From an uncultured Oscillospiraceae bacterium (GTDB lineage Bacteria > Bacillota > Clostridia > Acetivibrionales > DTU013), in assembly GCA_964587755.1 (NCBI GenBank), contig CAZPMC010000006.1:5488-69487 (forward strand): a stretch of DNA of 64,000 bases. Reading direction: 5' to 3'. The notes beneath the pieces were generated by a model. The model made no database searches. It was given only the letters and a program-made list of their open reading frames with translations, and was not told the DNA's origin. Of the stretch, positions 15,410 through 41,652 are shown in pieces. Each line of letters starts with the position of its first letter. Within the stretch, counting starts at the first letter, position 1. Made by a program: the position numbers and the translations under genes.

Positions 15410-16765
15410 ATGAAAATTATTAAAAATGCAATGATCGTCGTACCTGACAAAGAAAAACGCTTAATCCGTGATGGATTTATCCGCATTGACGGCAATTTGA
15501 TTGCTGAGATTGACTCAATGGACAAGCTGACTCCTCAAAAGCTTGAAGGTGCAGAAGTCATCGACGCGAAGGGCAAAATTGCCATTCCAGGCTTTGTTTC
15601 CACCCATAGCCATTTGTACAGCGCTGTTGTACGCAGCTTACCTCACTCAGGCTATGATGATGTAGACTTCTCGTTTGTTTCCTGGATGGAGAGATTCTGG
15701 TTTGCAATGCTTGAAGACAAGGTTACCAGAGAGGATATTTATGCCGGCACATTGATTAACTGCATTGAAAACATAAAGCACGGTTATACAACAACATCTG
15801 ATACATGTGAAGGCTCCTACGCACTTCCCGGAGCATTGTTTGAAACCGGCAGGGCTGTTAAGGAATCGGGAATGCGCGGTGTACTTTCCTTTGAAACAAC
15901 AGGAAGAATCAGCGAAGAAAACGCTATGTTGGGACTCAAAGAGAATGTTGATTTTATTGAGCATTGCCGTAAGCATGAGACTGACGGACGTATAAGAGGT
16001 GTAGTAGGGGTACACACTACATATACCTGCTCAGGTGACCTGATTCAAAAATGCAAGGCAGAAGCTCAACGCCTTGGTGTGGGAATACAGATGCATCTTG
16101 CCGATGACCGCTGGCACAGCTTCCATTCAACTCTAAAGTATGGAAAACGCTGCCTGAAGTGGTTGGAAGATCTTGAATTCTTAGGACCCGACGTATTATT
16201 CTTCCACTGCAGCTATATGGATAACAGGCTTGATCCTGCTATTATGAAGCATTACGGCTGCAACATTTCGCACCAGCCTGTTTCCAATGCAAGCTTCGGT
16301 TTCTGGCCAAACATGGTTCCATTCATTGATGCAGGTGTAAATGTATCACTCGGAACTGATGGACAGACACAGTCCATGTTTGAAAATATGCGTGCTGCAC
16401 AGATGATACACAGAATCCGTTATGAAAATCTTGAGCTTCTTCCTGACGAGGAAATGTTTGAAATGGCAACAATAAACGGAGCAAAATCATTACATCTTGA
16501 AGATGAAATAGGTACTCTTGAGGTTGGTAAGAAGGCTGATATAGTACTGCTGAAAAATAACAGCCCGGTTCCTGTATTTGAGAACAATATTATGAACTTC
16601 ATTGTTACAGTAGCTGACAGTGCTCATGTGGATACAGTATTGATTGATGGAAGGATGGTAGTTAAGGGCGGCGAGTACTTACTGCTTGACGAGGAAGAAG
16701 TCAGGGCACGCTGCCAGGAGCAGGCTGTTGATTTCTGGAAGCGCAATGACTGGCCGACTCCATAA
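15410..16765 (+). CDS. amidohydrolase, SsnA-like (ATZ/TRZ chlorohydrolase/aminohydrolase family)
   Basis: 451 aa. Metal-binding STHSHLYS, SFETTGR...ENVDFIEH (compare E. coli SsnA CFETTDR...ENIRF), and a GTDG motif. Confidence 0.8.
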   Translation: MKIIKNAMIVVPDKEKRLIRDGFIRIDGNLIAEIDSMDKLTPQKLEGAEVIDAKGKIAIPGFVSTHSHLYSAVVRSLPHSGYDDVDFSFVSWMERFWFAMLEDKVTREDIYAGTLINCIENIKHGYTTTSDTCEGSYALPGALFETGRAVKESGMRGVLSFETTGRISEENAMLGLKENVDFIEHCRKHETDGRIRGVVGVHTTYTCSGDLIQKCKAEAQRLGVGIQMHLADDRWHSFHSTLKYGKRCLKWLEDLEFLGPDVLFFHCSYMDNRLDPAIMKHYGCNISHQPVSNASFGFWPNMVPFIDAGVNVSLGTDGQTQSMFENMRAAQMIHRIRYENLELLPDEEMFEMATINGAKSLHLEDEIGTLEVGKKADIVLLKNNSPVPVFENNIMNFIVTVADSAHVDTVLIDGRMVVKGGEYLLLDEEEVRARCQEQAVDFWKRNDWPTP

Positions 16766-16814
16766 AACGGCGTTTAATGAAAACTGTTTGCACAAACATA
16801 AAGGAGTAAATTAT

Positions 16815-18044
16815 ATGAGTGATTATATAGCAAAATATTCCGGCGATTATGTCGGAAAAGATAAGTATATAACAAATGAAGAAGTGTGCCAAATTCTCTC
16901 TGACATAGTGACTGTTGATAGCACATTCGGCAGAGAGGGAGAATGCGGAAGGCTGATTGAAAAGATATGCAAGGAGCATGGGCTTAATGTTGAGATTATG
17001 CCTGTGACCGATGAACGTTTCAATGTGATGATTACCGTCGGTGCAGACAGTTACAAGAGCAAAAAGCTCGGGCTGATGCTCCATGGACATTATGATACGG
17101 TACCGGCTTTGGATATGGAGGATCCCTTTGTTACTAAAATACGTGACAATAAAATGTGGGGAAGGGGTATTGTAGACCAAAAGTCAGGTTTGGTGGCCTC
17201 AATTTGTGCAGCAATTGCCATTAAGCGTTCAGGCAAGCAGCTTAAAAAACCTTTCTGTGTTGCTGCTGTTGTTGACGAGGAGTCAGAGCACAGGGGAAGC
17301 TATACATTAGTAAGAAGTGGAATAGATGCTGAATATGCAATTGTTACCGAGCCTACCAATACAAGAACTGTTGAGTTTGGCTGCAAAGGCACTACTCCCA
17401 TCCGTATTACAGTTAAAGGCCGTACTGCCCATGCAAGTAACCCTTGGATAGGGGTAAACGCAATTGAAAAGGCAATGCCGATATTGAACGGTTTGTTTGC
17501 TATGAAGTTCCCTGAGAAAGATTTGGGAGAGTTCGGAAAGCTACAAGGCACACTGTGTGTAAGCAAGCTTGATGCAGGAACGGCATACAATAATGTTCCC
17601 GGAGAAGCCGTTATATGGATGGACAGAAGAACCGTCCCCGGTGAAAATACACCGTTGGCTTTAGCCCAGGTAAATTTGGTTATTGCAGAAGCTAAGAAAC
17701 ATGATCCTGAGCTTGATGCCTTTGCAGAAGTAGCTCGTCCTGACTGGCATTGGCAGCCTATTCGCGAACGGGGTCTAAATCCCACAGTTATGGACAGTGA
17801 TTGTGAGATTTACCATATTCTTAAAAGGGCAGCTAATAAGAGCGGATTAACTACTTTAGAAAAGCGTTATTCCAACGGTTACAATGAAATGGATTTCCTA
17901 ATTAACGATTTGAATATACCGACGCTAGTTTACGGACCTGGTGATGGGCAGATGGCTCACAGCCCTCGTGAAGAAGTTGATATTGATGATGTCTGCAATG
18001 TAGCGGAAGTATATTGCAATATGATCGAAGAAATTTGCATGTGA
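16815..18044 (+). CDS. M20-family metallohydrolase (ArgE/DapE/N-carbamoyl-amino-acid amidohydrolase-like)
   Basis: LHGHYDTVP, GRGIVDQKSG and VVDEESEH metal-ligand motifs. AAGGAG lies upstream of ATG 16815. The ORF-track start at 16686 overlaps the preceding gene. Confidence 0.8.
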   Translation: MSDYIAKYSGDYVGKDKYITNEEVCQILSDIVTVDSTFGREGECGRLIEKICKEHGLNVEIMPVTDERFNVMITVGADSYKSKKLGLMLHGHYDTVPALDMEDPFVTKIRDNKMWGRGIVDQKSGLVASICAAIAIKRSGKQLKKPFCVAAVVDEESEHRGSYTLVRSGIDAEYAIVTEPTNTRTVEFGCKGTTPIRITVKGRTAHASNPWIGVNAIEKAMPILNGLFAMKFPEKDLGEFGKLQGTLCVSKLDAGTAYNNVPGEAVIWMDRRTVPGENTPLALAQVNLVIAEAKKHDPELDAFAEVARPDWHWQPIRERGLNPTVMDSDCEIYHILKRAANKSGLTTLEKRYSNGYNEMDFLINDLNIPTLVYGPGDGQMAHSPREEVDIDDVCNVAEVYCNMIEEICM

Positions 18045-18100: not shown

Positions 18101-19189
18101 ATGGCATTTAATGTTGATCTGTCTGTAGAAGTAGCAGGTGTAAAAATGAAAAACCCTCTGGTTCTTTCAGAAGGGCCATTGTCAGGAAGCAAGCGACTGA
18201 TTGAACGTGCCGCACAGCACAATATAGGAGCAATCGTAACAAAAAGTATCCAGCAGAAAGCGAATGTATCCGCAAACCCGTACATGATTGCTGCAAATCG
18301 CGGCTTGATTAATGCGGATTGGACTGATATCGGATTAGAAACATGGCTTGAAGAACTTAAGAAGATAGATATACCGATGCCGCTGATTACGAATATTGGA
18401 ACAAACAATGTCCCGCCAAAGCAGGCTGCCGAATGGGCAGGTATTCTGCAGGAGCATGGTGCGGCTATGGTCACATTCTCTGATTATGAGCCTGAAAATC
18501 TGGTTGATGCCGTAAGCTATGCACGAAAAGAAGTTGATGTACCGATTATGGTTAAGCTGCCTCCTTTTGTAAAGAATATTGCAGATTTGTGCAAACGCCT
18601 TGAAGCGGCAGGCGTAACCATGATAGCTGCAATGGACGCAGTCGGGCCTGCAATGGATATAGATATATCAAAACGCAAACCTATTCTCGGTAATGACGGT
18701 GCATTTGGTTATATGTCATCAGCTCCCATATTCCCGCTGACTCTTGCATATATTGCTGAAATCGCAGGAAGCGTTAGTGTACCTGTACTTGGTGTCGGAG
18801 GCGTTACAAGTGCAGCTGATGTAATTAAGCTGATAATGGCCGGTGCCACATGTGTTGGTATGGTAGGTACTCCTATTCTTAAAGGCCTTGGAATATTTGA
18901 CAAGATTGAAGCTGATCTTCGCAAATGGATGGCAGAAAACAACGTTAAGAACCTGGCAGAGATAAGAGGCTGTGCACAGCCGTATATACATCAGACTGAG
19001 AAATACGGATTGAAAGCCAAGGTCGATTATGACACATGTACTGCATGTGGTTTGTGCTTTAAATCATGCTATGCGGCTGCTTTGACACCAAACAGTGATA
19101 AAAAGCCTGTTGTTAACACCCAATACTGCTCAGGTTGCGGTGTTTGCCAGAGTGTATGCCCTGTTAAGGCTATTAATGTTAGAGAATGA
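18101..19189 (+). CDS. dihydroorotate/dihydropyrimidine dehydrogenase-like flavoprotein fused to a 2x[4Fe-4S] ferredoxin domain (PreA-like)
   Basis: DHOD-type TIM-barrel N-terminus (VAGVKMKNPLVLSEGP...VTKSI). The C-terminus carries CTACGLCFKSC and CSGCGVCQSVCP. Confidence 0.7.
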   Translation: MAFNVDLSVEVAGVKMKNPLVLSEGPLSGSKRLIERAAQHNIGAIVTKSIQQKANVSANPYMIAANRGLINADWTDIGLETWLEELKKIDIPMPLITNIGTNNVPPKQAAEWAGILQEHGAAMVTFSDYEPENLVDAVSYARKEVDVPIMVKLPPFVKNIADLCKRLEAAGVTMIAAMDAVGPAMDIDISKRKPILGNDGAFGYMSSAPIFPLTLAYIAEIAGSVSVPVLGVGGVTSAADVIKLIMAGATCVGMVGTPILKGLGIFDKIEADLRKWMAENNVKNLAEIRGCAQPYIHQTEKYGLKAKVDYDTCTACGLCFKSCYAAALTPNSDKKPVVNTQYCSGCGVCQSVCPVKAINVRE

Positions 19190-20422: not shown

Positions 20423-21838
20423 ATGGAGCTTTTAATTAAAAATGGAACGCTAATCACCGTTGATAATGAGAGAAGGGTTTTTAAAGGAGATATTGCCGTT
20501 GACAAAGGAAGGATCGTCCGCATAGGAGAAGACTTATCCGACATCAAGGCAGATAAGGTGATTGATGCTGATGGATGTGCTGTTATGCCCGGAATGATCA
20601 ACACCCACACACATATATATCAGGCTCTCATTGAAGGTATTGGCTACGATATGCATTTTGAACCCTGGAATTGGCGTTTTCTGTTTCCGGTTGTAAGCAG
20701 GATGACACCGGAGCATTCTTATGTGAGTGCGCAGGTGGCTGCTTTGGAGATGATAAAAAGCGGAACTACAACAGTATGCGACCACTGGTATATGCATACA
20801 TATTTTGAGAACGTACGCAATGTTGCGCAAGCTTTGGATCAAAGCGGAATGCGCTCCTGCATCGTATATGGTTTATTGGATCGTTCCTTTGCAGGTTCAG
20901 CCATTGACGACGAAAGCATGACAATGGTACACACCCGGGAGGATTTAATGGCTGATGCGGAAAAATTTGCAGCAAAATGGCATAGGACAAGACGCACCAC
21001 AGTTGCATTAGGAGTGGGAACAACGCAGGATGCTTCCCCAGAGCTTTTAAAAATGTCCCAGGAGTTTTGCCTTGCAAACGGTATGCAAAACAACTTCCAT
21101 GTTGCTGGCTGGAGCGAGCTTATTACAAACTGCTATAAACAATTTGGAATGCGTGATGTTGAGAACCTTGCGAGGCTCGGATATGTAGGACCAAACATGG
21201 TATATGTCCATGCCGTGTGGCTGACTCCCGAGGAGATAAAGATAATTGGGGATACGGATACAAAGGTAGCCCACTGCCCGGTTGCCAATTCGCAGCTGGC
21301 ATATGGTGTTTCACCTGTTAGCGAAATGTTGGCACGGGACGTTGCAGTCGGCTTGGGTACAGATGGTGGTGCAAGTTACACTTATGACATGTTTGAGGTG
21401 ATGCGTACAGCATCATATTTGCAAAAGCAGAAAAATCTATCAGCCGACTTTTTAACTGCTGAGCAGGCAATAGAGCTTTCCACAATTAACGGCGCCCGGG
21501 TGCTGAATATGCAGGACGAGATTGGTTCATTGGAAGCAGGTAAGAAGGCTGACATTATTATTGTAGATTTTAATAAACCACACCTGATTCCTGTAAACCG
21601 CTACACTCCCAAATTAGTGTACAGCGCAAACGGCGGTGATGTAAGGACCACCATAATCGACGGAAAGGTTGTTATGGAGGACTATGAGGTTAAGACACTT
21701 AATGAAAAAGAAATAATGAAGGATGCTATTCGCTGTGCTAAGGAACTTGTCAGCGGCGCATCAAATGATGATACAGAAAAATTACTAAATGCTCCGTGGG
21801 GACGCAAACGTCCTTATTGGAGAAGCAAGGAGGATTAA
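20423..21838 (+). CDS. amidohydrolase, ATZ/TRZ family (paralog 2)
   Basis: MPGMINTHTHIYQ, a GTDG motif and GSLEAGKKADIIIVD. GGGAG sits 7 nt upstream of ATG 20423. Confidence 0.8.
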   Translation: MELLIKNGTLITVDNERRVFKGDIAVDKGRIVRIGEDLSDIKADKVIDADGCAVMPGMINTHTHIYQALIEGIGYDMHFEPWNWRFLFPVVSRMTPEHSYVSAQVAALEMIKSGTTTVCDHWYMHTYFENVRNVAQALDQSGMRSCIVYGLLDRSFAGSAIDDESMTMVHTREDLMADAEKFAAKWHRTRRTTVALGVGTTQDASPELLKMSQEFCLANGMQNNFHVAGWSELITNCYKQFGMRDVENLARLGYVGPNMVYVHAVWLTPEEIKIIGDTDTKVAHCPVANSQLAYGVSPVSEMLARDVAVGLGTDGGASYTYDMFEVMRTASYLQKQKNLSADFLTAEQAIELSTINGARVLNMQDEIGSLEAGKKADIIIVDFNKPHLIPVNRYTPKLVYSANGGDVRTTIIDGKVVMEDYEVKTLNEKEIMKDAIRCAKELVSGASNDDTEKLLNAPWGRKRPYWRSKED

Positions 21839-21841
21839 GTT

Positions 21842-23200
21842 ATGGCTAAGCTTGAATTCCCAAAGGATTTTATTTGGGGCATCGGCAACGGTGCATATCA
21901 ATCCGAAGGTGGATACAATGAGGACGGAAGAGGCGAGACTATTTGGGACCGCTACTGTCACATACCCGGCCGGATTATTGACGGCGCCAGCGGTGATGTC
22001 ACATCGGATTTTTACCATAGGTATAAAGAGGACATTGCCCTGATGAAAAAGATGGGTATTCCGAACTTTCGCATGTCAATTTCCTGGGCGAGGATAATAC
22101 CTGACGGGAGAGGCGAAATAAATGAAAAGGGTATAGCCTTCTATCATTCTGTTTTGGATGAGCTGATAAAAAATGGTATCGAGCCCATGGTAAACCTTTA
22201 CATGTGGGATTTGCCACAGAAGCTGCAGGATATCGGAGGATGGGCAAATAGAGATGTGACAGATTACTTTGAAAGATATTGCCGGATTGTATTTAAGGAA
22301 TACGGCTCTAAGGTCAAGACCTGGCTTACATTTGATGAACCCTTCTGCTGTGCGTTTATAGGCAATTACCTGGGAACATACGCACCAGGGCTTACGGATT
22401 TCTCCACTGCTCTTTTGGTAAGCTACAATATGCTTCTTGCCCATGGCAAGGCTGTAAAAGCGTGCCATGAAATAATACCTGATGCAAAAATCGGTATAGC
22501 ACTAAACCTTTCAGACTGCAAAAGTGCAACTGACAAGAAGGAAGATATTGAAGCAGCAATTCGCGCAGACGGCTACCGTAACCGCTGGTTCCTGGATCCG
22601 ATTTACAAGGGAAGCTTCCCGCAGGACATGCTTGATTGGTACGAAAAACAGGGAGTAGTTATGCCAGAAATATTGCCGGAGGATTTGAAAATCATGTCCG
22701 AGCCACAGGATTTCCTGGGAATTAACTTCTATTCACCTCATTTCTACGTACATGACGAACAGGTCTGGCCAATAAAGCTGACTGGAGTTAAGGTAGGATA
22801 CCCGGTAAATTATATTAATTGGGAAATTGTGCCTGAGGCAATTTACAACATCCTCACCCGTGTTAAAAAAGATTACGGGGATATTGAGATAAAAATTACT
22901 GCCAACGGCAACTGTACTACGGATATTATCAATCGTGAGCACAAGCTTCTGGATGATGAGCGTATTGATTATATGTACAATCATCTTATACAGATAAATA
23001 AAGCAATTGAAGAAGGCATTCGTGTTACAGCGTATTATGCATTCTGCTTTACCGACAACCTTGAATGGACCCTTGGCTTTACTAAACGTTTCGGCCTTGT
23101 GTATGTTGATTTTAAGACTCAGGAGAGGATAGTCAAGGAAAGCGGTCACTGGTATTCTAAGGTAATAAGGGACAATGGCTTCGAGCTGGTTGACAAATAG
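21842..23200 (+). CDS. glycoside hydrolase family 1-like protein with a non-canonical active site
   Basis: Full-length GH1 fold (AYQSEGG, FRMSISWARIIPDG, NLEW, KRFGLVYVD). The TENG nucleophile motif reads ITANG (Ala354, GCC 22901-22903), NEP reads DEP (D165-E166), and YHWDLP reads YMWDLP (M121). Confidence 0.85.
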   Translation: MAKLEFPKDFIWGIGNGAYQSEGGYNEDGRGETIWDRYCHIPGRIIDGASGDVTSDFYHRYKEDIALMKKMGIPNFRMSISWARIIPDGRGEINEKGIAFYHSVLDELIKNGIEPMVNLYMWDLPQKLQDIGGWANRDVTDYFERYCRIVFKEYGSKVKTWLTFDEPFCCAFIGNYLGTYAPGLTDFSTALLVSYNMLLAHGKAVKACHEIIPDAKIGIALNLSDCKSATDKKEDIEAAIRADGYRNRWFLDPIYKGSFPQDMLDWYEKQGVVMPEILPEDLKIMSEPQDFLGINFYSPHFYVHDEQVWPIKLTGVKVGYPVNYINWEIVPEAIYNILTRVKKDYGDIEIKITANGNCTTDIINREHKLLDDERIDYMYNHLIQINKAIEEGIRVTAYYAFCFTDNLEWTLGFTKRFGLVYVDFKTQERIVKESGHWYSKVIRDNGFELVDK

Positions 23201-23263: not shown

Positions 23264-24619
23264 ATGCGTGAATGTGATTTAATACTTGGAGGAAGCTACC
23301 TTCTCGCAATGGATGATAATGACACCCGAATCAGAAATGGTGGTGTGGCAATTAAAGATGGCAAGATTATTGCACTTGCGGAAATATCCGAGTTGAGAAA
23401 TCAGTATAAACCGAAAGAGGAAATCGTACACGAAAATGCAGTTATCCTCCCGGGCTTGATTGATGCTCATACCCATGAAACTTTAACAAGGGGCCTGCAT
23501 GAGGACCTCCCATTGATGCGGTGGTTGGAAGAGGTATGCTACCCCGTTGAGGCAAGCTATACACCGGAAGATATATATGCCGCTGCACTGATGACACAGA
23601 TGGAGCTTATACGCGGTGGAGTTACGACTTTTATTGATATATTCAGATATGCAGACCAAGCTATAAAGGTCATTGAAAAGTCCGGAATGAGAGCCATATT
23701 TACTCCCCAGTTTTTTGATGAGACTTCTGATACGCTGGAGAGTATTGATAAAACAGTGGATTTGATTGAGAAATATCATGGCAGCCAAAACGGCCGTGTC
23801 AGTGTCTGGTTTGGACCTCACGCACCTTATTCCTGCGGCCCCGAAAGCTATGCAAGGGCCGCTGAGCTTTCGAAAAAACTCGGTGTCGGAGTCCATACTC
23901 ATATGTGTGAGACAAAGGCAGAGGTTCAATTAATAAAAGAAAGATACGGAAAGGATCCTGTAGAATACCTCCATGAGGCAGGCGTTCTAGATGTTCCCTG
24001 TGTTTTGGCCCACTCTATCTACCTGACAGATGAAAATATTTCACTGTTGGCAAAGAAGCGGGATACTGCAGGACTTGTATATAACCCCATAAGCAATATG
24101 AAAATAGCCGATGGAATAGCAAGAATACCTGAGCTTCTTTCGGCGGGCTGTACGGTCGGCTTGGGCACTGATTCCAATTTATCTAACAATGGATTGGATA
24201 TGTTTGCAGAAATGCGCATAGGAAGTTACCTGCAGAAGGTGTTTAATGATGATGCGACCATAATGCCATGCTTTGAAATGCTAAAGCTGGCAACACGCGG
24301 CAGTGCAAAGGTTCTAAAAATGGAAGACAAAATAGGAAGCTTAGAACCCGGAAAATGTGCTGATGTTATTGCTGTAAGCTTCAGTAAACCGCATATGTGG
24401 CCTATTTATTATGAGAATCCAAGTAATATTGTTGAGCAGATTGTCTACTCGGCACGCGCTTCAGATGTTATAACAACTATAGTTGATGGTAAGGTTTTAA
24501 TGGATAATTATGTTATCCGGACACTTGATGAGAAAGGTGCTTTTGAGTTTATACAAAAAAGGGCAATGGATTTATATGCACGCAGCTTTCCAGACAGGGT
24601 AAGCAGTGAGAAAATATAA
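23264..24619 (+). CDS. amidohydrolase, MtaD/nucleoside-nucleobase deaminase-like (paralog 3)
   Basis: LPGLIDAHTHE..RGLHEDLPLMRWLEE, HTHMCE, a GTDS motif and GSLEPGKCADVIAV. Confidence 0.8.
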   Translation: MRECDLILGGSYLLAMDDNDTRIRNGGVAIKDGKIIALAEISELRNQYKPKEEIVHENAVILPGLIDAHTHETLTRGLHEDLPLMRWLEEVCYPVEASYTPEDIYAAALMTQMELIRGGVTTFIDIFRYADQAIKVIEKSGMRAIFTPQFFDETSDTLESIDKTVDLIEKYHGSQNGRVSVWFGPHAPYSCGPESYARAAELSKKLGVGVHTHMCETKAEVQLIKERYGKDPVEYLHEAGVLDVPCVLAHSIYLTDENISLLAKKRDTAGLVYNPISNMKIADGIARIPELLSAGCTVGLGTDSNLSNNGLDMFAEMRIGSYLQKVFNDDATIMPCFEMLKLATRGSAKVLKMEDKIGSLEPGKCADVIAVSFSKPHMWPIYYENPSNIVEQIVYSARASDVITTIVDGKVLMDNYVIRTLDEKGAFEFIQKRAMDLYARSFPDRVSSEKI

Positions 24620-24650
24620 ATATTTAAGCATGAGGAAGGAGCCAGTTAAG

Positions 24651-27434
24651 ATGAATGAAATAAAACTTACAGTAAACGGGAAACAGGTTACTGCTACCAA
24701 TCCAGAAATGACTCTTCTGAAATTCCTGCGCGAAGAATTGGGACTTGTTGGTGCAAAAGACGGGTGCAGCAGAAGCCAATGCGGTTCTTGTACGGTAATA
24801 GTAAATAAAAAAGCTGTTACTGCCTGTTCACAGAAGATGAAGAGGCTTGAGGGGGCAATTGTTGAAACTATAGAAGGATTGGCAGACGGCGACAAGCTCC
24901 ATCCCTTGCAGATTGCGTTTATGAAATTAAGTGCATTTCAGTGCGGCTTCTGTACTCCTGGAATGATAATGAAGGCTAAGGAGCTTTTAGACAAAAATCC
25001 TGACCCGTCGGAGGAAGAAATAAAAGAAGCATTAAAGAGAAACATTTGCCGCTGCACAGGGTACAAAAAGATTGTTGAAGCTGTTCAGCTGGCTGCCCGG
25101 ATTTTAAGCGGCAAAGAAGCAGTTGATTTATATGATGACGACGGCAGGGTAGGAGACCGTACTGTTCGTACCGATGCCCTTAGAAAGGTAAAGGGTCATC
25201 CTGTATACACCGATGACTACAAGCTGGTTAAACCGCTACAAGGGAAAATGCTGTTTTCTGAGTATCCTCATGCAAAGATATTGTCTATTGATATTGAAGA
25301 GGCGAAAAAAATGCCTGGTGTTGCTGCAATTGCTCTTTATAAAGACGTTCCCGGGCGAAAGGTATTTGGACAGGGAATGGTTCCGAATCAGCCTGTTATC
25401 GCAGGTGACATTGTCCGCTTTGTAGGCGATCCGGTGGCGGTAGTTTACGCGGATACAGAGGAACAAGCCTATGCAGCAATGGAACGTATTAAGGTCGAGT
25501 ATGAACCGCTGCCTGTCCTTACTTCCCCAAGAGAAGCCATGAAAGAGGATGCATTCAAGATATATGATGAGGGCAATATTCTTAAGCACCATCATACTCA
25601 CAAGGGAAATGTGGACAGGGGCTTTGAACAGTCAGATATCATAATTGAGGATACCTATTATACTCAATGTATTGATCATGGTTATATGGAGCTGGATGCA
25701 GCCCTTGCAGAATATGACGAAAATGGCAGGCTGATAGTGTACGGCTCTGTGCAGAATCCGTTAGGTCTGGTTAAGGACATAGCTGCGTGCCTGGCATTGG
25801 ACGAGGACAAGGTCCGTGTAGTTATCCGTCCAAACGGCGGTGCCTTCGGCGGAAGAGAAGAGCCTTCAGTTCATATCCAGGCAGCTTTAGGAACCCTGAT
25901 GACTGGAAGACCTGTAAGAATGGTTTTCAGCCGTGAAGAATTAAATATATTCTCAACAAAACGCCATGCAATGGAATTAAAATATAAAATCGGTGCTACC
26001 AAAGATGGCAAGCTGATGGCTATTAAGGCTGAGACTGTTGGTGATACAGGAGCCTATGATTCTTCAGGTGAATTTGTTTTATTCCGTGCATGCGTGTTTG
26101 GAGCAGGACCATATGAGATTCCAAATGCCTGGATGGACAGCTATGCAGTGTATACAAACAATGCAAATGCCGCTTCGATGCGCGGTTTTGGAAGCACCCA
26201 GCCATGCCTGGCAATGGAAGCAATGCTTGACAGGGTGGCAGAGGCATGCAACATTGACCCCTTTGAAATTCGCAGGATAAACGGATTGGATATTGGAAAG
26301 CAGACAATTACCGGCCATGTAATTGATTACGGAATAGGTTTTAAAGAAGCCCTTAATGCTATAGAAAGAGAAGTTAAGAAAGACGGATTGCCAGAACCTT
26401 CAGGTCCGAATAAGAAGATAGGTATCGGTATAGCAGGCAGTATGAAGAACGTCGGTCTGGGCTCGGGCTCTGAAGACTCTGCATGGGCTCAGATGCGTCT
26501 GGGTGAGGATGGGAAGATTGTTGTTATGATGGGTGCCGTTGAATTCGGACAAGGCTGCGATACGGTTATGGCTCAGATTGCAGCAGAGACTTTGGGTGTA
26601 TCCATCAGAAATATCCGGATGGCTCCGGTAGACACGGAATATACTCTCGACGGCGGGATTACAACTGCTTCAAGACAGACATTCGTTTCAGGCAATGCAG
26701 TTAAGACAGTCGGAAGCATTTTTAAGAACACTATGCTAAATTACGTTTCGGAAGTCTCCAAGATACCTGTTGGATATCTTGAATGTGACAAGGACGGAAT
26801 ATATGACGTACGTAAAGGGCAAAGCTTCAGGATGAGCTTTGAAGAACTGGCAAAGACAGCAAAGCAAAATAATCGTGATATACATGAAAAATATTATTAT
26901 GTTGCTCCTGAGACAAGACCTTTAAAGGAATGCTCGGATAACTTATCAAACGATGTGGTCGGACACAGGCTTCATTTCTCATACTGCTTCGGCGTACAGG
27001 CTGTAATTGTCGAGGTGGACGAGGAAACCGGAGAAGTGAAGGTGCTTCGTGCTTATGCCGCAAACGATGCAGGCCGTGCAATCAACCCTGCCCTCGTAGA
27101 AGGCCAAATCGAGGGTGGCGTTGCCATGGGAATCGGTTACGCACTTTCAGAGAACTTTGAAATGAAAGACGGGTATGTGGTGTCTAAGGAATTTAAAGAT
27201 CTGGGACTTCCAAGGTCAACAGATATCCCGACTGACATAAGGACAATTATTGTAGAAGAAAATCACCCTTATGGGCCCTTCGGTGCTAAAGGAATGGGTG
27301 AGTTGCCGTTGAATGCAACTGCACCGGCAATCTTAAATGCAATTTATGATGCTGTCGGAGTTAGAATAACATCATTACCTGTTAAGCCGGAAAAGCTTTC
27401 AGAGCTTATTAAGGATAAGAAAAAAAGTAGTTAG
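24651..27434 (+). CDS. molybdopterin-dependent hydroxylase, fused [2Fe-2S] plus Mo-binding subunit (XdhD-like, xanthine dehydrogenase family)
   Basis: 927 aa from ATG 24651. N-terminal CSRSQCGSCTV and QCGFCTPG [2Fe-2S] motifs, GGAFGGRE, and C-terminal PFGAKGMGE. No FAD-binding subunit gene is adjacent. Confidence 0.85.
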   Translation: MNEIKLTVNGKQVTATNPEMTLLKFLREELGLVGAKDGCSRSQCGSCTVIVNKKAVTACSQKMKRLEGAIVETIEGLADGDKLHPLQIAFMKLSAFQCGFCTPGMIMKAKELLDKNPDPSEEEIKEALKRNICRCTGYKKIVEAVQLAARILSGKEAVDLYDDDGRVGDRTVRTDALRKVKGHPVYTDDYKLVKPLQGKMLFSEYPHAKILSIDIEEAKKMPGVAAIALYKDVPGRKVFGQGMVPNQPVIAGDIVRFVGDPVAVVYADTEEQAYAAMERIKVEYEPLPVLTSPREAMKEDAFKIYDEGNILKHHHTHKGNVDRGFEQSDIIIEDTYYTQCIDHGYMELDAALAEYDENGRLIVYGSVQNPLGLVKDIAACLALDEDKVRVVIRPNGGAFGGREEPSVHIQAALGTLMTGRPVRMVFSREELNIFSTKRHAMELKYKIGATKDGKLMAIKAETVGDTGAYDSSGEFVLFRACVFGAGPYEIPNAWMDSYAVYTNNANAASMRGFGSTQPCLAMEAMLDRVAEACNIDPFEIRRINGLDIGKQTITGHVIDYGIGFKEALNAIEREVKKDGLPEPSGPNKKIGIGIAGSMKNVGLGSGSEDSAWAQMRLGEDGKIVVMMGAVEFGQGCDTVMAQIAAETLGVSIRNIRMAPVDTEYTLDGGITTASRQTFVSGNAVKTVGSIFKNTMLNYVSEVSKIPVGYLECDKDGIYDVRKGQSFRMSFEELAKTAKQNNRDIHEKYYYVAPETRPLKECSDNLSNDVVGHRLHFSYCFGVQAVIVEVDEETGEVKVLRAYAANDAGRAINPALVEGQIEGGVAMGIGYALSENFEMKDGYVVSKEFKDLGLPRSTDIPTDIRTIIVEENHPYGPFGAKGMGELPLNATAPAILNAIYDAVGVRITSLPVKPEKLSELIKDKKKSS

Positions 27435-27458
27435 TAAAGGTTGGAAAGAGGATTTAAT

Positions 27459-28655
27459 ATGGACAAAAAATTTTCATTGGCACCAATACAGAGGAAGGCT
27501 ACTGATAACAACAAGTTTCTCAGCGTAGAGCTGGGTGAACAGGTTGTAAATTATCACAAAAGCTTTCCTGCCTATGAGCAAACACCTTTAACCGATTTAC
27601 CAGAGCTTGCAAGGGAAATCGGAATCGAAAAGCTATATGTTAAGGATGAATCTTACCGATTCGGGCTTAATGCATTTAAGGTATTGGGCGGTAGCTACAG
27701 TATAGGTGCTTATCTCGCAAAAAGGTTACAGCTTGCTCCAAATCAGATAAACTACGGGACCCTCTGCTCTGATGCTGTCCGTGAGAAGCTGGGCGTACTA
27801 ACATTTGTCACTGCGACCGATGGGAATCACGGTCGCGGTGTGGCATGGACCGCACGGGAGCTCGGACACAAATCAGTGGTGTACATGCCTCATGGCAGCT
27901 CAGATGAGAGATTAGAAAATATAAGGGCAGAGGGCGCCGAAGCTGAGATACTTGACATGAATTATGATGAGGCTGTCAGGCTGGCAAATAAAATGGGTAA
28001 AGAGCATGGATGGATTATGGTACAGGATACGGCATGGGAAGGCTATGAGGAGATACCCCGCTGGATTATGCAGGGGTATTTGACGATGGCATATGAGGCT
28101 GCCACGCAACTGAAAGACCAAGTCCCGACTCATGTATTCTTGCAGGCAGGTGTCGGTTCATTGGCAGGGGCTGTTGCAGGTTACCTGGCTAATTACTATG
28201 GCAATAACAAGCCACAGATTGTTGTAGTTGAGCCGAATAAGGCAAACTGCATTTACAGGACTGCTGCTGCAGCTGACGATAAGCTGCACTTTGTAACAGG
28301 CAAGCTGGATACACTAATGGCAGGTTTAGCTTGTGGAGAGCCAAACCGGATAGGTTGGGAAATATTACAGGAGACTGCAGAATATGCAATATCGTGTCCT
28401 GATTGGGTAGCTGCTAAGGGAATGAGAATTTTGGCCGCTCCTATCGGAAACGACAGTAAAGTGATTTCAGGTGAAAGCGGAGCGGTTACCACAGGACTGG
28501 TCGCCCAAATCATGACAGACCCTGATTTAGCATGGATGAAGGATGAGCTGAAAATTGACAGCACGTCAAAAATCCTTTGTTTCAGTACTGAGGGGGATAC
28601 AGACAAGGAAAATTACCGCCGTATCATTTGGGACGGTGCTTACCCTGGGCTTTAA
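27459..28655 (+). CDS. dpaL: diaminopropionate ammonia-lyase (PLP-dependent), YgeX-like
   Basis: 398 aa. KDESYRFGLNAFKVLGG matches the YgeX/DpaL lysine motif region, and TATDGNHGRGVAW is present. Confidence 0.85.
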   Translation: MDKKFSLAPIQRKATDNNKFLSVELGEQVVNYHKSFPAYEQTPLTDLPELAREIGIEKLYVKDESYRFGLNAFKVLGGSYSIGAYLAKRLQLAPNQINYGTLCSDAVREKLGVLTFVTATDGNHGRGVAWTARELGHKSVVYMPHGSSDERLENIRAEGAEAEILDMNYDEAVRLANKMGKEHGWIMVQDTAWEGYEEIPRWIMQGYLTMAYEAATQLKDQVPTHVFLQAGVGSLAGAVAGYLANYYGNNKPQIVVVEPNKANCIYRTAAAADDKLHFVTGKLDTLMAGLACGEPNRIGWEILQETAEYAISCPDWVAAKGMRILAAPIGNDSKVISGESGAVTTGLVAQIMTDPDLAWMKDELKIDSTSKILCFSTEGDTDKENYRRIIWDGAYPGL

Positions 28656-28801: not shown

Positions 28802-29566
28802 ATGATGAGGTTAGACAGACTAAACAGTATGGAAGAGTATGTGCATGAATGCGGTAGTGTCTCTTTAAGCGACCTGGCTAAGAAATTCAATATTTCGATT
28901 AATACTGTTCGCCGGGATGTGGAGGAATTATTGGAACGGGGCACAATGAAAAAGGTGTACGGAGGCGTTGCATCTAACATAACTACACAAGTTATGCCTA
29001 TCAGTGACCGGGAAAACACTAATATTGCTGCAAAGCAGAGTATAGGGAAAATGGTTGCAAAGCTCATTGATAATGATTCAACGGTATTCATTGACTCGGG
29101 CTCAACACCTGCACAGGTTATTCAACACTTAGGCCAGAAAAACAATATAACTGTCATCACTAATAGTCTAAAAGCTATGTATGAGAGCTCAAAATATCCT
29201 AACATTAGGCTTTTAGGAATAGGAGGCTTGTACAATACCTTCAAAGGCTCTTTTGTCGGTTCCAGCACATTAGAAAACATTTCGAAACTAAATTTCGATG
29301 TAGTTCTTCTTGGTTCCACTTGTATTTCCTTAGAAAATGGGCTGACAATAAACTCATTTTTCGAAGTTGATATTAAAAGATGGCTTGTTCAGCATAACAA
29401 ACGTACTATATTAATGGCTGACACAAGCAAATATGATAAGACGGCTCTTTACTCCTTCAGTGATTTTAGCGATGTAAAGATTGTTGCTGCTGAGAAGCCT
29501 TTGCCCCCAAGGTACATGAAAGAGATTTCTGAGCGCGGCATGACCTTCCTTTGCCCGGATAATTAA
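28802..29566 (+). CDS. DeoR-family transcriptional regulator
   Basis: N-terminal HTH (VSLSDLAKKFNISINTVRRDVEELLERG) and a C-terminal DeoR sugar-phosphate-binding-type domain. Confidence 0.88.
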   Translation: MMRLDRLNSMEEYVHECGSVSLSDLAKKFNISINTVRRDVEELLERGTMKKVYGGVASNITTQVMPISDRENTNIAAKQSIGKMVAKLIDNDSTVFIDSGSTPAQVIQHLGQKNNITVITNSLKAMYESSKYPNIRLLGIGGLYNTFKGSFVGSSTLENISKLNFDVVLLGSTCISLENGLTINSFFEVDIKRWLVQHNKRTILMADTSKYDKTALYSFSDFSDVKIVAAEKPLPPRYMKEISERGMTFLCPDN

Positions 29567-29589
29567 ATATGAAAGGCAGGAGTACTCAT

Positions 29590-30489
29590 ATGAAAACTAT
29601 TATAGATGAAGTCACCGTTACACAGGTGATTTCAAAATTCATCACTTATTTTGCCAAGGTACTTCCTGATGATATAATAGCAAAGCTTCAAGAATTAAGA
29701 ACGCTGGAAACAGATGAATTGCCGGCGCTTATATATGATACTATGATCAAAAATCAGGAGCTGGCACAAAAGCTCGACAGGCCAAGCTGCCAGGATACAG
29801 GCGTAATACAGTTCTTTCCGAAGGCAGGTACAGCGTTTCCGCTGATTGACAGGTTACCTGATATATTTAAAAATGCAGTTTTAAGTGCGACGGTAAATGC
29901 ACCGTTGCGTCATAACGCAGTTGAAACATTCGACGAGAAAAATACAGGAAACAACACAGGCTACCGTGTGCCTACTATTGAATGGGAGATTGTACCCAAT
30001 TCTGATGAGCTTATTTTAGATATTTATATGGCAGGAGGAGGCTGTACTCTTCCAGGAAAAGCAATGGTGCTTATGCCGGGTGCCGGCTATGAAGGGGTAG
30101 TTGATTTTGTGTTGGATGTAATAACTTCTTATGGCATTAATGCATGTCCGCCCCTTGTTGTAGGAGTTGGAGTGGCAACCTCTGTTGAAACTGCTGCAAT
30201 GTTATCAAAAAAAGCAATTCTCAGACCTCTTGGTTCGAGAAATCCAAACGAACGGGCAGCGATGCTGGAAGCCCTTCTTGAGGAAGGAATCAATTCAATT
30301 GGTATTGGACCTCAGGGATTGTCCGGCAGGAAATCTGTTTTGGGCGTACATATCGAAAATGCAGCACGCCATCCATCAACCATAGGTGTAGCAGTAAATG
30401 TAGGCTGCTGGTCTCATAGGCGCGGACGCATCATTTTTAAGGCAGATGGCATATATGAAATTGTTTCGCATAAGGGGGTGCGTCTATGA
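29590..30489 (+). CDS. Fe-S hydro-lyase alpha subunit (class I fumarase / L(+)-tartrate dehydratase TtdA-like)
   Basis: The SCQDTGV motif is typical of the class I fumarate/tartrate hydro-lyase N-terminal domain. AGGAG sits 7 nt upstream of ATG 29590. Confidence 0.75.
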
Positions 30490-33688: not shown

Positions 33689-33706
33689 ATAGTCAGATAT
33701 GACTAT
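33689..33706. promoter_or_regulatory. 18-bp palindrome ATAGTCA-GATA-TGACTAT at the rpiB/mcp junction
   Basis: Perfect 7-bp inverted repeat overlapping the rpiB stop codon. It shares the TGACTA core with the direct repeats at 35205-35223. Confidence 0.3.
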
Positions 33707-34164: not shown

Positions 34165-34174
34165 CTCCCGTTCT

Positions 34175-37923: not shown

Positions 37924-37981
37924 ACTAATTACAGATCCAGCAAAGAACAAAAATCGGTGAGAACGTCTTCATTAAGCAGAC

Positions 37982-38006: not shown

Positions 38007-38022
38007 CCTGCGGGGAGGTTTA

Positions 38023-40682: not shown

Positions 40683-40695
40683 GGAGGAAACTGCT

Positions 40696-41628: not shown

Positions 41629-41652
41629 CCAGAATAGTTGGGAGTAAAATTA

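What the first reader, a model, noticed from the sequence alone, without database searches (positions are those of the whole stretch)
21842..23200. GH1-family protein with the catalytic nucleophile replaced (ITENG to ITANG) plus two further active-site changes
The ORF is a full-length, otherwise well-conserved GH1 barrel, but three hallmark residues differ:
- The nucleophile Glu of the I/VTENG motif is Ala354 (GCC at 22901-22903).
- The Asn of the acid/base NEP motif is Asp, giving TFDEP (D165-E166).
- The glycone-binding His of YHWDLP is Met121.

GCC needs two nucleotide changes from GAA and more than a trivial change from GAG. Combined with the two other substitutions, this argues against a simple sequencing error.

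A retaining beta-glycosidase mechanism is impossible without the nucleophile. Engineered Glu-to-Ala GH1 enzymes are glycosynthases, and Klotho GH1 domains lacking catalytic Glu are non-enzymatic.

The gene starts 3 nt after an amidohydrolase gene and lies inside the purine-type cluster. It may use an exogenous nucleophile (phosphate or substrate assistance), cleave an N- or C-glycosidic bond, or act as a binding subunit.
Basis: seen in the sequence. Interest (0 to 1): 0.75.

Follow-up and report, generated by a model that had tools for sequence, protein, structure and literature searches.

The report
Rewired GH1 enzyme in purine-nucleoside cluster
A gene that databases would call a beta-glucosidase belongs to a small, strongly conserved clade. 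In this clade the catalytic nucleophile is dispensable (Glu, Ala or Gly in close relatives) and the sugar C2/C3 contacts are rebuilt. The gene always sits inside an anaerobic purine/nucleoside breakdown cluster, so it probably does a different, still untested reaction.

Summary
**Observation: confirmed.** ORF 21842..23200 is a full-length GH1 barrel with M121, D165-E166 and A354 (GCC), plus F57 and F401 in place of two more conserved residues.

**Not an error or a decaying gene.**
- The same sequence occurs on a JGI contig.
- dN/dS against a 90%-identical ortholog is 0.043, the same range as the neighbouring genes.

**The clade.** The protein belongs to a closed clade of 53 sequence clusters, all from uncultured anaerobes (one record is titled Clostridia).
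- All members carry F57, M/W/A121, D(E/A)165 and F401.
- Q20, R77, W122, E166, Y297, E408 and W409 are invariant.
- The nucleophile position is not clade-defining. It switches between E, A and G at least 5-6 times, even within one 90% cluster.

**Context.** In all 11 loci that hold this type of partner gene and extend past it, the gene directly follows one amidohydrolase. The cluster resembles the C. difficile-type reductive urate cluster. Around it lie a Bmp-type ABC importer, a 5'-deoxyadenosine-deaminase-type enzyme, DeoR, DeoC and RpiB. No nucleoside phosphorylase or hydrolase is present.

**Best reading (about 0.4).** A nucleophile-independent GH1-fold hydrolase that cleaves the N-glycosidic bond of an imported purine nucleoside-like substrate.

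**Main rivals.** A purine-ring hydrolase like soybean hydroxyisourate hydrolase (also GH1), or a non-catalytic partner of the amidohydrolase.

**Status.** The substrate is untested. I found no paper on this clade.

The parts
21842..23200 (+). GH1x: a 452-aa GH1-fold protein with a rewired -1 subsite and no catalytic nucleophile
   Evidence: ORF and translation. PF00232 534 bits. Model pLDDT 88.4, TM 0.93 to 3AHX.
21827..21833 (+). AAGGAGG ribosome-binding site, 8 nt before the ATG and inside the 3' end of the upstream gene
   Evidence: Read directly from the sequence.
22010..22012 (+). F57 codon (TTT). Canonical GH1 has His here (DHYH). Invariant Phe in the clade.
22202..22204 (+). M121 codon (ATG). 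Replaces the family-invariant His that binds C3-OH and C2-OH. M, W or A in the clade.
   Evidence: residue role from PMC6522968
22334..22339 (+). D165-E166 (GAT GAA). The NEP Asn (C2-OH ligand) is Asp here. The acid/base Glu is kept and is invariant in the clade.
22901..22903 (+). A354 codon (GCC) at the nucleophile position of I/VTENG. E, A or G in the clade.
23042..23044 (+). F401 codon (TTC). Replaces the invariant sugar-platform Trp. Invariant Phe in the clade.
   Evidence: residue role from PMC6522968
20417..21838 (+). AH2: TRZ/ATZ-type amidohydrolase and invariable upstream partner. The stop lies 3 nt before the GH1x start.
   Evidence: GH1x follows it in 11 of 11 loci with AH2 at 68% identity or more that extend past it.
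15410..16765 (+). AH1: SsnA-like amidohydrolase, below the SsnA cut-off
   Evidence: 302 bits against a cut-off of 444
16686..18044 (+). M20a: ArgE/DapE/YgeY-type M20 hydrolase. The mechanical TTG start is probably too early.
   Evidence: Orthologs are 409 aa.
18101..19189 (+). UacX/PydAc-like reductase (DHO_dh domain plus 2x[4Fe-4S] ferredoxin domain)
   Evidence: PMC12507026
19095..20393 (+). M20b: YgeY-family hydrolase
   Evidence: NF009555, 432 bits against a cut-off of 321
23264..24619 (+). AH3: TRZ/ATZ amidohydrolase. The nearest solved relatives are MTA/SAH deaminases.
24606..27434 (+). XdhD-like molybdenum hydroxylase with 2Fe-2S domains fused to the MoCo-binding domains. No FAD subunit.
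   Evidence: TIGR03311, 719 bits against a cut-off of 830
27441..28655 (+). YgeX: diaminopropionate ammonia-lyase
   Evidence: TIGR03528, 612 bits against a cut-off of 532
28802..29566 (+). DeoR-family regulator
   Evidence: Conserved next to the cluster in L002, L003, L006 and L007.
29569..31094 (+). TtdA/TtdB: Fe-S tartrate-dehydratase-type hydro-lyase, alpha and beta subunits
31119..31778 (+). DeoC: deoxyribose-phosphate aldolase
   Evidence: TIGR00126, 175 bits against a cut-off of 117
33703..35044 (-). RpiB (ribose-5-phosphate isomerase B) and a xylose-isomerase-like TIM-barrel epimerase/isomerase
35303..36601 (+). AH4: D-hydantoinase/dihydropyrimidinase-like cyclic amidohydrolase (HyuA-like)
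   Evidence: TIGR02033, 245 bits against a cut-off of 393
36826..41628 (+). ABC importer: Bmp/PnrA-type binding protein, a double-ATPase subunit and two permeases
41638..43020 (+). AH5: 5'-deoxyadenosine-deaminase-type nucleoside deaminase
   Evidence: NF005557, 545 bits against a cut-off of 522

Best explanation
GH1x is an active, neofunctionalised GH1-fold hydrolase that no longer uses the Koshland double-displacement mechanism.

**Shown**
- It belongs to a small closed clade under strong purifying selection.
- The acid/base Glu166 and the C4/C6-side ligands (Q20, W122, E408, W409), together with R77 and Y297, are invariant.
- The three residues that touch sugar C2-OH/C3-OH in ordinary GH1 enzymes (H121, N165 and the nucleophile E354) are replaced or free to vary. 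The sugar-platform Trp is invariably Phe (F401).
- A new set of polar residues has become invariant: S21, D225, C226, R246, H300, N323 and C358. From homology I place most of them on the aglycone side of the cleft.
- The gene is fixed directly behind one amidohydrolase, inside a purine reductive-degradation cluster.
- Around that cluster lie a Bmp-type ABC importer, a nucleoside deaminase, DeoR, DeoC and RpiB. No other glycosidic-bond-cleaving enzyme is present.

**Inferred**
- The cluster feeds on an imported purine (deoxy)nucleoside or a close analogue.
- GH1x removes the sugar from the base, or from a ring-opened N-glycosyl ureide.
- Glu166, assisted by Asp165, protonates or activates the nitrogen leaving group.
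- Water captures an oxocarbenium-like species directly, without a covalent glycosyl-enzyme intermediate.
- This would explain why residue 354 can be Glu, Ala or Gly with no effect on gene retention.
For: **Fold and family**
- PF00232 534 bits; model TM 0.93 to 3AHX.

**A closed clade**
- 53 clusters share F57, M/W/A121, D/E/A165 and F401.
- Bit scores then drop sharply to canonical GH1 in two independent searches.

**Nucleophile lability**
- At least 5-6 E/A/G changes occur on the tree, which puts the site at the 62nd percentile of site variability.
- Q20, F57, R77, W122, E166, Y297, F401, E408 and W409 show no changes.
- Both E and A occur within one 90% cluster.

**Purifying selection**
- GH1x dN/dS is 0.043. 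The neighbouring genes range from 0.022 to 0.095.

**Which residues changed**
- The changed residues are the C2/C3 ligands and the platform defined in PMC6522968.

**New invariants**
- New clade-specific polar residues are invariant.

**Synteny**
- GH1x follows AH2 in 11 of 11 loci, at 59-100% GH1x identity.

**Nucleoside context**
- Bmp-type ABC importer.
- AH5 scores above the 5'-deoxyadenosine deaminase cut-off.
- DeoC and RpiB score above their cut-offs.
- A DeoR-family regulator is present.
- No PNP, PyNP, IU-NH, phosphopentomutase or ribokinase family was found in the 64-kb window.

**Sister clusters**
- Clusters built on a more distant AH2 lack GH1x.
- One of them (L044) carries RpiB, DeoC, phosphopentomutase and pyrimidine-nucleoside phosphorylase directly upstream of AH2. 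This shows that this cluster type is coupled to nucleoside cleavage.

**Base-degradation steps are already covered**
- All steps of the published reductive urate pathway have candidate enzymes here without GH1x.
Against: - No substrate was tested, and no riboswitch or other ligand clue was found.
- GH1 enzymes are pyranosidases. As far as I know, no GH1 is known to cleave ribofuranosyl N-glycosides.
- Retention of the C4/C6 hexose ligands (Q20, E408, W409) fits a pyranose, or a polar six-membered heterocycle, better than a furanose.
- Housekeeping nucleoside phosphorylases may lie elsewhere in these genomes, so the missing-enzyme argument is only moderate.
- In four of the five sister loci that continue past AH2, GH1x is replaced positionally by a tungsten aldehyde oxidoreductase and no nucleoside phosphorylase lies within the fetched DNA. 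Gene position therefore does not establish functional equivalence.
- The cluster holds no kinase or mutase that would pass a free sugar to DeoC or RpiB.
- Most clade members keep Glu354, so they could still work by the classical mechanism.
Confidence: 0.4

Rival explanations
1. **Purine-ring (cyclic amide or ureide) hydrolase.** GH1x is the anaerobic counterpart of soybean hydroxyisourate hydrolase. It would bind a reduced purine or ureide ring, not a sugar, in the former -1/+1 pocket. It would open the ring with a carboxylate pair: E166 plus D165 or E354.
For: - Soybean hydroxyisourate hydrolase is a GH1 member that hydrolyses an internal bond of a purine ring. It has lost conserved glucose-binding residues (PMC1781453; PMC7154165).
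- GH1x lies in the middle of the base-degrading genes, directly after an amidohydrolase and near the UacX reductase. In the urate pathway the product of the equivalent reductase must be hydrolysed at once.
- The smallest locus seen (L005) keeps the order UacX-AH2-GH1x.
- Half of the sugar ligands are lost and new polar invariants have appeared.
- Every clade member keeps E166 plus at least one acidic residue at 165 or 354.
Against: - The soybean enzyme keeps both catalytic Glu residues (HENG motif). From my own recollection of Raychaudhuri and Tipton (2002/2003), it also needs both. Here the second Glu is dispensable.
- The cluster already encodes five amidohydrolases and two M20 hydrolases. 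That is enough for every ring-opening and ureido-cleavage step of the published pathway.
- The hexose C4/C6 ligands remain invariant.
- The 'one acidic residue at 165 or 354' pattern is not statistically significant. About 0.4 double losses are expected by chance among 55 sequences.
Confidence: 0.2
2. **Non-catalytic GH1 pseudoenzyme.** GH1x would act as a ligand-binding or scaffolding partner of the amidohydrolase AH2, comparable to the Klotho GH1 domains.
For: - The nucleophile is absent or variable.
- The link to AH2 is tight and probably translationally coupled. The gap is 3 nt in the window, and the two genes abut in L005.
- Catalytically incomplete GH1 domains are common in animal multi-domain proteins (motifs such as ITGNG, VTQNG and ITSNG).
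- They also occur in other single-domain lineages.
Against: - The acid/base Glu and most pocket residues are invariant, and new pocket-side residues have become invariant. That points to a conserved small-molecule site. It does not, however, exclude binding without turnover.
- No fusion with AH2 was seen in any locus.
Confidence: 0.13
3. **Glycosidase for a sugar modified at C2/C3** (2-amino, 2-acylamino, 2-deoxy or 3-keto). It would work by substrate-assisted catalysis, with a D165-E166 pair as in GH20 and GH84, or by base-catalysed elimination. A carboxylate at 165 or 354 would act next to C2.
For: - Only the C2/C3-side ligands changed. The C4/C6 ligands are kept.
- An adjacent Asp-Glu pair is the hallmark of GH20-type neighbouring-group catalysis. 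That mechanism needs no enzyme nucleophile (mechanism summarised in PMC10570127).
- Short-chain dehydrogenases and a xylose-isomerase-like TIM-barrel protein lie in the island.
Against: - No such sugar is suggested by the surrounding genes. The context is purine or nucleoside catabolism, not amino-sugar or keto-sugar catabolism.
- The dehydrogenases are not part of the conserved core.
- D165 is itself replaced by Ala in two lineages.
Confidence: 0.12
4. **Glycoside or nucleoside phosphorylase.** Phosphate, or another external anion, would occupy the cavity left by the missing Glu and act as the nucleophile, as in chemical rescue of Glu-to-Ala mutants.
For: - Anaerobes favour phosphorolysis.
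- The island has DeoC, RpiB, transketolase, GAPDH and PGK, which all act on sugar phosphates, but it has no sugar kinase.
- Ala at position 354 would make room for an anion.
Against: - Most orthologs keep Glu354, which would repel phosphate.
- E-bearing and A-bearing orthologs would give opposite anomers within one conserved pathway.
- The clade-specific changes add no Arg, Lys or His near the catalytic centre. They remove two His residues and add an Asp.
- No phosphopentomutase is present in the window or in any GH1x locus searched.
Confidence: 0.05
5. **Sequencing error or a strain-specific decaying beta-glucosidase gene.**
For: - The closest orthologs, at about 90% identity, carry ITENG.
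Against: - An identical sequence occurs on a second contig.
- Ala or Gly occurs in nine other clusters, with three different Ala codons.
- dN/dS is 0.043 with dS 1.34.
- The ORF is intact, a ribosome-binding site is present, and synteny is conserved.
Confidence: 0.02

Closest known systems
Canonical bacterial GH1 beta-glucosidases (for example C. cellulovorans BglA 3AHX, T. maritima BglA 1OD0)
   Same: - Same (beta/alpha)8 fold: TM 0.93, 48% identity.
- Full-length PF00232 match.
- Retained: acid/base Glu, Q20, W122, Y297, E408, W409 and R77.
   Different: - The nucleophile Glu is absent here and variable in the clade.
- H121, N165 and the platform Trp are replaced.
- About 16 clade-specific invariants are present.
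- The genomic context is purine and nucleoside catabolism, not sugar uptake.
Soybean hydroxyisourate hydrolase (GH1; Raychaudhuri and Tipton 2002/2003)
   Same: - A GH1-fold protein recruited to purine catabolism.
- It has lost conserved glucose-binding residues and acts on a non-glycoside C-N bond.
   Different: - It is a eukaryotic enzyme of the aerobic urate-oxidase pathway.
- It keeps both catalytic Glu residues (HENG).
- Any resemblance would be convergent recruitment.
C. difficile-type reductive urate (2,8-dioxopurine) gene cluster (PMC12507026; bioRxiv 10.1101/2025.04.24.650524)
   Same: - XdhD-like Mo enzyme without an FAD subunit.
- UacX (PydAc-like) reductase.
- SsnA-like amidohydrolase, YgeY and YgeX.
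   Different: - Neither paper mentions a glycosidase.
- This cluster adds GH1x, two TRZ/ATZ-type amidohydrolases and a second M20 hydrolase.
- It is flanked by nucleoside and sugar-phosphate genes.
- The SsnA-like, XdhD-like and HyuA-like proteins score below the equivalog cut-offs.
Engineered glycosynthases (GH1 Glu-to-Ala/Gly nucleophile mutants) and Klotho-type inactive GH1 domains
   Same: - Ala or Gly at the nucleophile position in an otherwise intact GH1 barrel.
   Different: - Here the change is natural and recurrent, and it interchanges with Glu among orthologs under purifying selection.
- It is accompanied by remodelling of the C2/C3 ligands.
- There is no evidence for activated donors or for a signalling role.
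GH20/GH84 hexosaminidases (neighbouring-group mechanism)
   Same: - An adjacent Asp-Glu pair and no enzyme nucleophile.
   Different: - A different family and clan.
- No evidence for a 2-acetamido substrate.
- The resemblance is mechanistic speculation only.

Membership tests
Glycoside hydrolase family 1 (sequence and fold family) | Full-length match to PF00232 and a (beta/alpha)8 GH1 fold | tested here: met
   534 bits over residues 5-447. Model pLDDT 88.4, TM 0.93 to 3AHX.
Retaining GH1 beta-glycosidase (Koshland mechanism) | Nucleophile Glu in the I/VTENG motif | tested here: not met
   A354 (GCC) in the window. E, A or G in the clade.
Retaining GH1 beta-glycosidase (Koshland mechanism) | Acid/base Glu in the NEP motif | tested here: met
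   E166 is present and invariant in the clade. The preceding Asn is Asp.
Retaining GH1 beta-glycosidase (Koshland mechanism) | The eight -1 subsite residues: Q, H, W, N, W, E, W and the nucleophile (PMC6522968) | tested here: not met
   Four of eight are changed (M121, D165, F401, A354). Four are kept (Q20, W122, E408, W409).
NCBIfam TIGR03356 'GH1 family beta-glucosidase' (equivalog) | HMM score above the curated cut-off | tested here: met
   533 bits against 478.5. Automated annotation will therefore call it a beta-glucosidase. The catalytic-residue tests above argue that this name is wrong.
GH1-type hydroxyisourate hydrolase | GH1 fold, both catalytic Glu kept (HENG), glucose ligands lost, acts on 5-hydroxyisourate | tested here: inconclusive
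   Fold and partial loss of the sugar ligands are met. The second Glu is not kept in the window protein.
Reductive urate (2,8-dioxopurine) degradation cluster | XdhD, YgfK or UacX, SsnA, HyuA, YgeY, YgeW or UacY, and YgeX co-localised | tested here: inconclusive
   YgeY (432 against 321) and YgeX (612 against 532) are above their cut-offs. A UacX-type architecture is present. The XdhD-like (719 against 830), SsnA-like (302 against 444) and HyuA-like (245 against 393) proteins are below their cut-offs. This is a related variant, not a proven ortholog of the pathway.
Nucleoside hydrolases and phosphorylases (IU-NH, PNP/UDP, PyNP families) | Membership of PF01156, PF01048 or PF00591/PF07831 | tested here: not met
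   GH1x matches only PF00232. A nucleosidase role would be a functional analogy, not membership of these families.

The most novel reading that the evidence does not exclude
A natural GH1 lineage has abandoned the covalent glycosyl-enzyme mechanism. The former nucleophile drifts freely between Glu, Ala and Gly. The barrel has been re-tooled, with E166, D165 and new polar invariants that I place on the aglycone side, to cleave a C-N bond in anaerobic purine or nucleoside catabolism. That bond would be either the N-glycosidic bond of a nucleoside-like substrate or a purine-derived ring bond. This would be a new catalytic solution within clan GH-A, and a missing step of a variant 2,8-dioxopurine-type pathway in uncultured anaerobes.
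Probability: 0.55. Interest if true: 0.8.

Novelty: new variant of a known kind. Interest (0 to 1): 0.62.

Why it matters
- **Annotation.** Automated annotation will name this protein a GH1 beta-glucosidase, because it scores above the curated cut-off. That name is almost certainly wrong.
- **Enzymology.** The clade is a natural experiment. A textbook catalytic nucleophile has become evolutionarily neutral while the rest of the pocket stays frozen. Pairs of near-identical orthologs with Glu or Ala (about 90% identity) are ready-made for mechanistic comparison.
- **Metabolism.** The gene marks an uncharacterised variant of the recently discovered anaerobic reductive purine pathway. This variant seems to start from nucleosides, and GH1x is the only unexplained enzyme in its core.
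- **Precedent.** If GH1x acts on a C-N bond, it would be the second case of a GH1 barrel recruited to purine catabolism, after soybean hydroxyisourate hydrolase. It would be the first bacterial, anaerobic one.

Tried and rejected
- **Sequencing error or pseudogene.** Rejected. An identical second contig exists, Ala or Gly recurs with three Ala codons, dN/dS is 0.043, and all orthologs are intact.
- **A354 as a clade-defining character.** Rejected. Most members have Glu.
- **More members or intermediates.**
  - A second word-based search seeded with the most basal member returned the same 53 clusters.
  - The profile search of 1.84 billion representatives added none. It was dominated by multi-domain eukaryotic GH1 proteins.
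  - The GTDB genome scan found one member only.
- **Riboswitch clue to the inducing ligand.** Nothing was found in the window apart from an unrelated T-box. Nothing was found in 13 related loci.
- **Promoter and terminator scan.** Counts were not above chance.
- **Literature.** No paper links a GH1 or a glycosidase to the SsnA/YgeY/XdhD clusters.
  - The GH185 paper that surfaced for 'GH1 + substrate-assisted' is unrelated to GH1 mechanism.
  - The original soybean hydroxyisourate hydrolase papers are not in the library.
  - PDB entry 7X0R, the closest solved relative of the binding protein, could not be traced to a paper.
- **Structure model.** Foldseek only re-confirmed the GH1 fold.
- **'At least one acidic residue at 165 or 354'.** Noted, but not statistically supported. 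About 0.4 double losses are expected by chance.
Full report
**1. The observation**

- ORF 21842..23200 (+) encodes 452 aa without interruption.
- It matches Pfam PF00232 over its whole length at 534 bits.
- It also exceeds the curated cut-off of the NCBIfam beta-glucosidase equivalog, 533 bits against 478.5.
- The HMMER alignment to C. cellulovorans BglA (3AHX) shows YHWDLP->YMWDLP, THNEP->TFDEP and ITENG->ITANG.
- Two further conserved residues are replaced: H57->F, and the sugar-platform Trp->F401.
- An AAGGAGG ribosome-binding site lies 8 nt before the ATG. The upstream amidohydrolase stops 3 nt before it.
- An AlphaFold model built from 28 clade sequences is confident (pLDDT 88.4, pTM 0.91). 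It superposes on 3AHX with TM 0.93 at 48% identity.

**2. Not an error, not decay**

- The identical nucleotide sequence occurs on a JGI metagenome contig.
- Against the 90%-identical ortholog in L002, dN/dS is 0.043 at dS 1.34.
- That is the same range as the neighbouring genes: AH2 0.022, AH1 0.039, UacX 0.060 and YgeX 0.095.
- All orthologs retrieved are full length.

**3. A closed clade with a rewired pocket**

Extent of the clade:

| Search | Result |
|---|---|
| 5.8-billion-protein collection, window protein as query | 53 clusters at 58% identity or more; the next hits are canonical GH1 enzymes at 54% or less |
| Same collection, most basal member as query | The same 53 clusters, then a drop from 601 to 504 bits |
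| Profile search of 1.84 billion representatives | No further members |
| GTDB genome scan | One member, an uncultured Clostridia MAG |

Residue pattern:
- Every clade member has F57, M/W/A121, D/E/A165 and F401.
- Every neighbouring non-member has H, H, N and W at these positions.
- PMC6522968 lists eight -1 subsite residues conserved in more than 5,000 GH1 sequences.
- The four that changed are those that contact C2-OH (the nucleophile, N165 and H121), C3-OH (H121) and the hydrophobic platform.
- The four that bind the C3/C4/C6 side are kept: Q20, W122, E408 and W409.
- Within the clade, Q20, F57, R77, W122, E166, Y297, F401, E408 and W409 never change.
- Sixteen positions are invariant in the clade but variable or different in canonical relatives.
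- They include the polar residues S21, D225, C226, R246, H300, N323 and C358.
- By homology with solved GH1 complexes, most of these lie in the loops that form the aglycone side of the cleft. This placement rests on my own knowledge and was not checked on coordinates.

**4. The nucleophile is dispensable, not simply replaced**

- Position 354 is Glu in most members. These include P0002 (90% identity, identical synteny) and P0121 (the same 90% cluster as the window protein).
- It is Ala in P0001, P0006, P0009, P0016, P0050-52, P0122 and locus L035. It is Gly in P0053.
- On a neighbour-joining tree the basal lineages are Ala or Gly. Fitch parsimony needs 5-6 changes.
- That places the site at the 62nd percentile of variability in a protein where 122 sites never change.
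- The Ala codons seen are GCA, GCT and GCC, and the Glu codons are GAA and GAG.
- The likely path is a single GAA<->GCA change followed by synonymous drift.
- Positions 121 and 165 also vary (2-4 changes each).
- The observed combinations at (121, 165, 354) are:

| Combination | Count |
|---|---|
| M D E | 41 |
| W D A | 4 |
| M D A | 3 |
| W D E | 3 |
| W A E | 2 |
| A E A | 1 |
| W D G | 1 |

- No member lacks an acidic residue at both 165 and 354. Only about 0.4 such cases are expected by chance, so this is a hint and not a result.
- A site that switches between Glu and Ala among orthologs in one conserved pathway cannot be doing covalent catalysis.
- This also argues against an external nucleophile filling the gap, because the two forms would give opposite anomers.

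**5. Genomic context**

Core order. In the window and in ten further loci (59-90% GH1x identity) the order is conserved:
1. AH1 (SsnA-like)
2. M20a
3. UacX-like reductase
4. M20b (YgeY)
5. AH2
6. GH1x
7. AH3
8. XdhD-like Mo enzyme

Several loci lack one or more of these genes. L005, for example, retains only UacX-AH2-GH1x.

- Diaminopropionate ammonia-lyase, a DeoR regulator, TtdAB and DeoC often follow the core.
- GH1x follows AH2 in all 11 loci where AH2 is at 68% identity or more and the contig continues.
- This is a variant of the C. difficile-type reductive urate (2,8-dioxopurine) cluster described in PMC12507026.
- Neither that paper nor the parallel preprint mentions any glycosidase. 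No paper in the library links one to these genes.

Flanking genes in the window:
- A Bmp/PnrA-type ABC importer, whose solved relatives bind mainly nucleosides.
- AH5, scoring above the 5'-deoxyadenosine deaminase cut-off.
- Bona fide DeoC and RpiB.
- A hydantoinase-like AH4, transketolase, type II GAPDH and PGK.

Missing enzymes:
- No purine or pyrimidine nucleoside phosphorylase, IU-type nucleoside hydrolase, phosphopentomutase or ribokinase family was found in the 64 kb.
- No pyrimidine-nucleoside phosphorylase or phosphopentomutase was found within 10 kb in any GH1x locus.

Sister clusters:
- They are built on a more distant AH2 (52-62% identity).
- They lack GH1x and have a tungsten aldehyde:ferredoxin oxidoreductase in its place. 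They also carry a DHDPS-type aldolase, and two of them carry an IlvD/Edd dehydratase.
- One of them (L044) has RpiB, DeoC, phosphopentomutase and pyrimidine-nucleoside phosphorylase immediately upstream of AH2.

**6. Interpretation**

- The conserved, selected pocket with an invariant acid/base argues for a working small-molecule site.
- The neutral nucleophile and the relaxed C2-side triad argue for chemistry that needs neither a covalent intermediate nor 2-OH recognition.
- The context argues for a purine nucleoside-type growth substrate. Its base-degradation steps are all covered by other enzymes, while its glycosidic cleavage has no other candidate.
- I therefore favour, at about 0.4, a nucleophile-independent N-glycoside hydrolase. 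E166 and D165 would activate the nitrogen leaving group, and water would attack directly.
- A 2'-deoxy sugar would rationalise both the relaxed C2 ligands and the DeoC gene. This is inference only.
- The hexose-type C4/C6 ligands and the lack of any precedent for furanosides in GH1 count against this reading.
- The main rival, at about 0.2, is a ring or ureide hydrolase. The precedent is soybean hydroxyisourate hydrolase, a GH1 protein that cleaves a purine ring bond and has lost glucose ligands. That enzyme, however, retains both Glu residues.
- The remaining readings are:

| Reading | Weight |
|---|---|
| Non-catalytic partner of AH2 | about 0.13 |
| Glycosidase for a C2/C3-modified sugar, using the Asp-Glu pair as in GH20 | about 0.12 |
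| Phosphorylase | about 0.05 |
| Error or decay | about 0.02 |

**7. Comparison and novelty**

- By sequence and fold the protein is a GH1 family member.
- It fails the defining catalytic tests of a retaining beta-glycosidase. The nucleophile is absent and four of eight -1 ligands are changed. It should not be annotated as a beta-glucosidase despite passing the HMM cut-off.
- Nucleophile-less GH1 domains are known in Klotho- and lactase-type animal proteins. Other single-domain database lineages also lack the nucleophile (P0262, P0279, P0319, P0259). Those lineages mostly keep H121 and the platform Trp.
- What is new here is the combination of three features:
  - a nucleophile that is evolutionarily neutral under strong overall constraint;
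  - a specific remodelling of the C2/C3 side together with new polar invariants that I place on the aglycone side;
  - fixed membership of an anaerobic purine/nucleoside catabolic cluster.
- I rate it a new variant of a known kind, with interest 0.62.

Noticed in passing
L039:7727-9580, L041:11377-13290, L044:6889-8727, L040:2313-4217, L042:5288-7138: In clusters built on a more distant AH2 (52-62% identity), a tungsten-type aldehyde:ferredoxin oxidoreductase (AFOR_N/AFOR_C) takes the place of GH1x behind AH2. AH1, M20a, a DHDPS-type aldolase, UacX and a Bmp ABC importer follow in L039, L041 and L044, with an IlvD/Edd dehydratase in L041 and L044. This looks like a sister pathway with a non-phosphorylative sugar-acid branch.
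   Followed up: partly
L044:100-5205: RpiB, DeoC, a thymidine-kinase-like ORF, phosphopentomutase and pyrimidine-nucleoside phosphorylase lie directly upstream of AH2. This classical deo-type module is attached to the base-degradation genes.
   Followed up: partly
proteins P0262, P0279, P0319, P0259: Other single-domain GH1 representatives lack catalytic residues (HYDP/ITANG, HSEP/ITANG, LHDP/ITGNG, IHEP/VTDNG). They mostly keep H121 and the platform Trp. They appear to be separate nucleophile-less GH1 lineages of unknown function.
   Followed up: no
window 45657-49709: A type II (archaeal-type) phosphorylating GAPDH, PGK and a split transketolase (N and C halves as separate ORFs) lie inside the catabolic island, next to three short-chain dehydrogenases and a D-2-hydroxyacid dehydrogenase (43035-45595, 49746-50513).
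   Followed up: partly
window 29569-31094: TtdA/TtdB L(+)-tartrate-dehydratase-type Fe-S hydro-lyase subunits score above the equivalog cut-offs. They are conserved next to the cluster in L002, L003 and L005. Their role in a purine or nucleoside pathway is unexplained.
   Followed up: partly
L004:14832-15743 and L005:8392-9327: A 303-311 aa protein with no Pfam match follows an ECF transporter (two ATPases, EcfT, and an S component weakly like the riboflavin type). In these two loci that transporter sits directly downstream of GH1x.
   Followed up: partly
window 300-537: A T-box leader (106 bits) lies upstream of the ilvB-ilvN-ilvC-leuA operon at 577-6976. It is unrelated to the finding.
   Followed up: no
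window 16686-16765 and 19095-19189: The mechanical TTG and GTG starts of the two M20 genes overlap the preceding genes by 80 and 95 nt. Orthologs are 409 and 395-401 aa, so the real starts are probably about 30-45 codons further downstream.
   Followed up: partly
window 50530-51108: A MobA-like NTP transferase lies at the end of the island. It is plausibly the molybdenum-cofactor nucleotidyl transferase that serves the XdhD-like enzyme.
   Followed up: no
window 52848-60964: A separate sugar-type ABC system (two SBP_bac_1 binding proteins, two permeases) with an AraC-type response regulator and a Cache/HAMP histidine kinase. It is apparently unrelated to the purine cluster.
   Followed up: no
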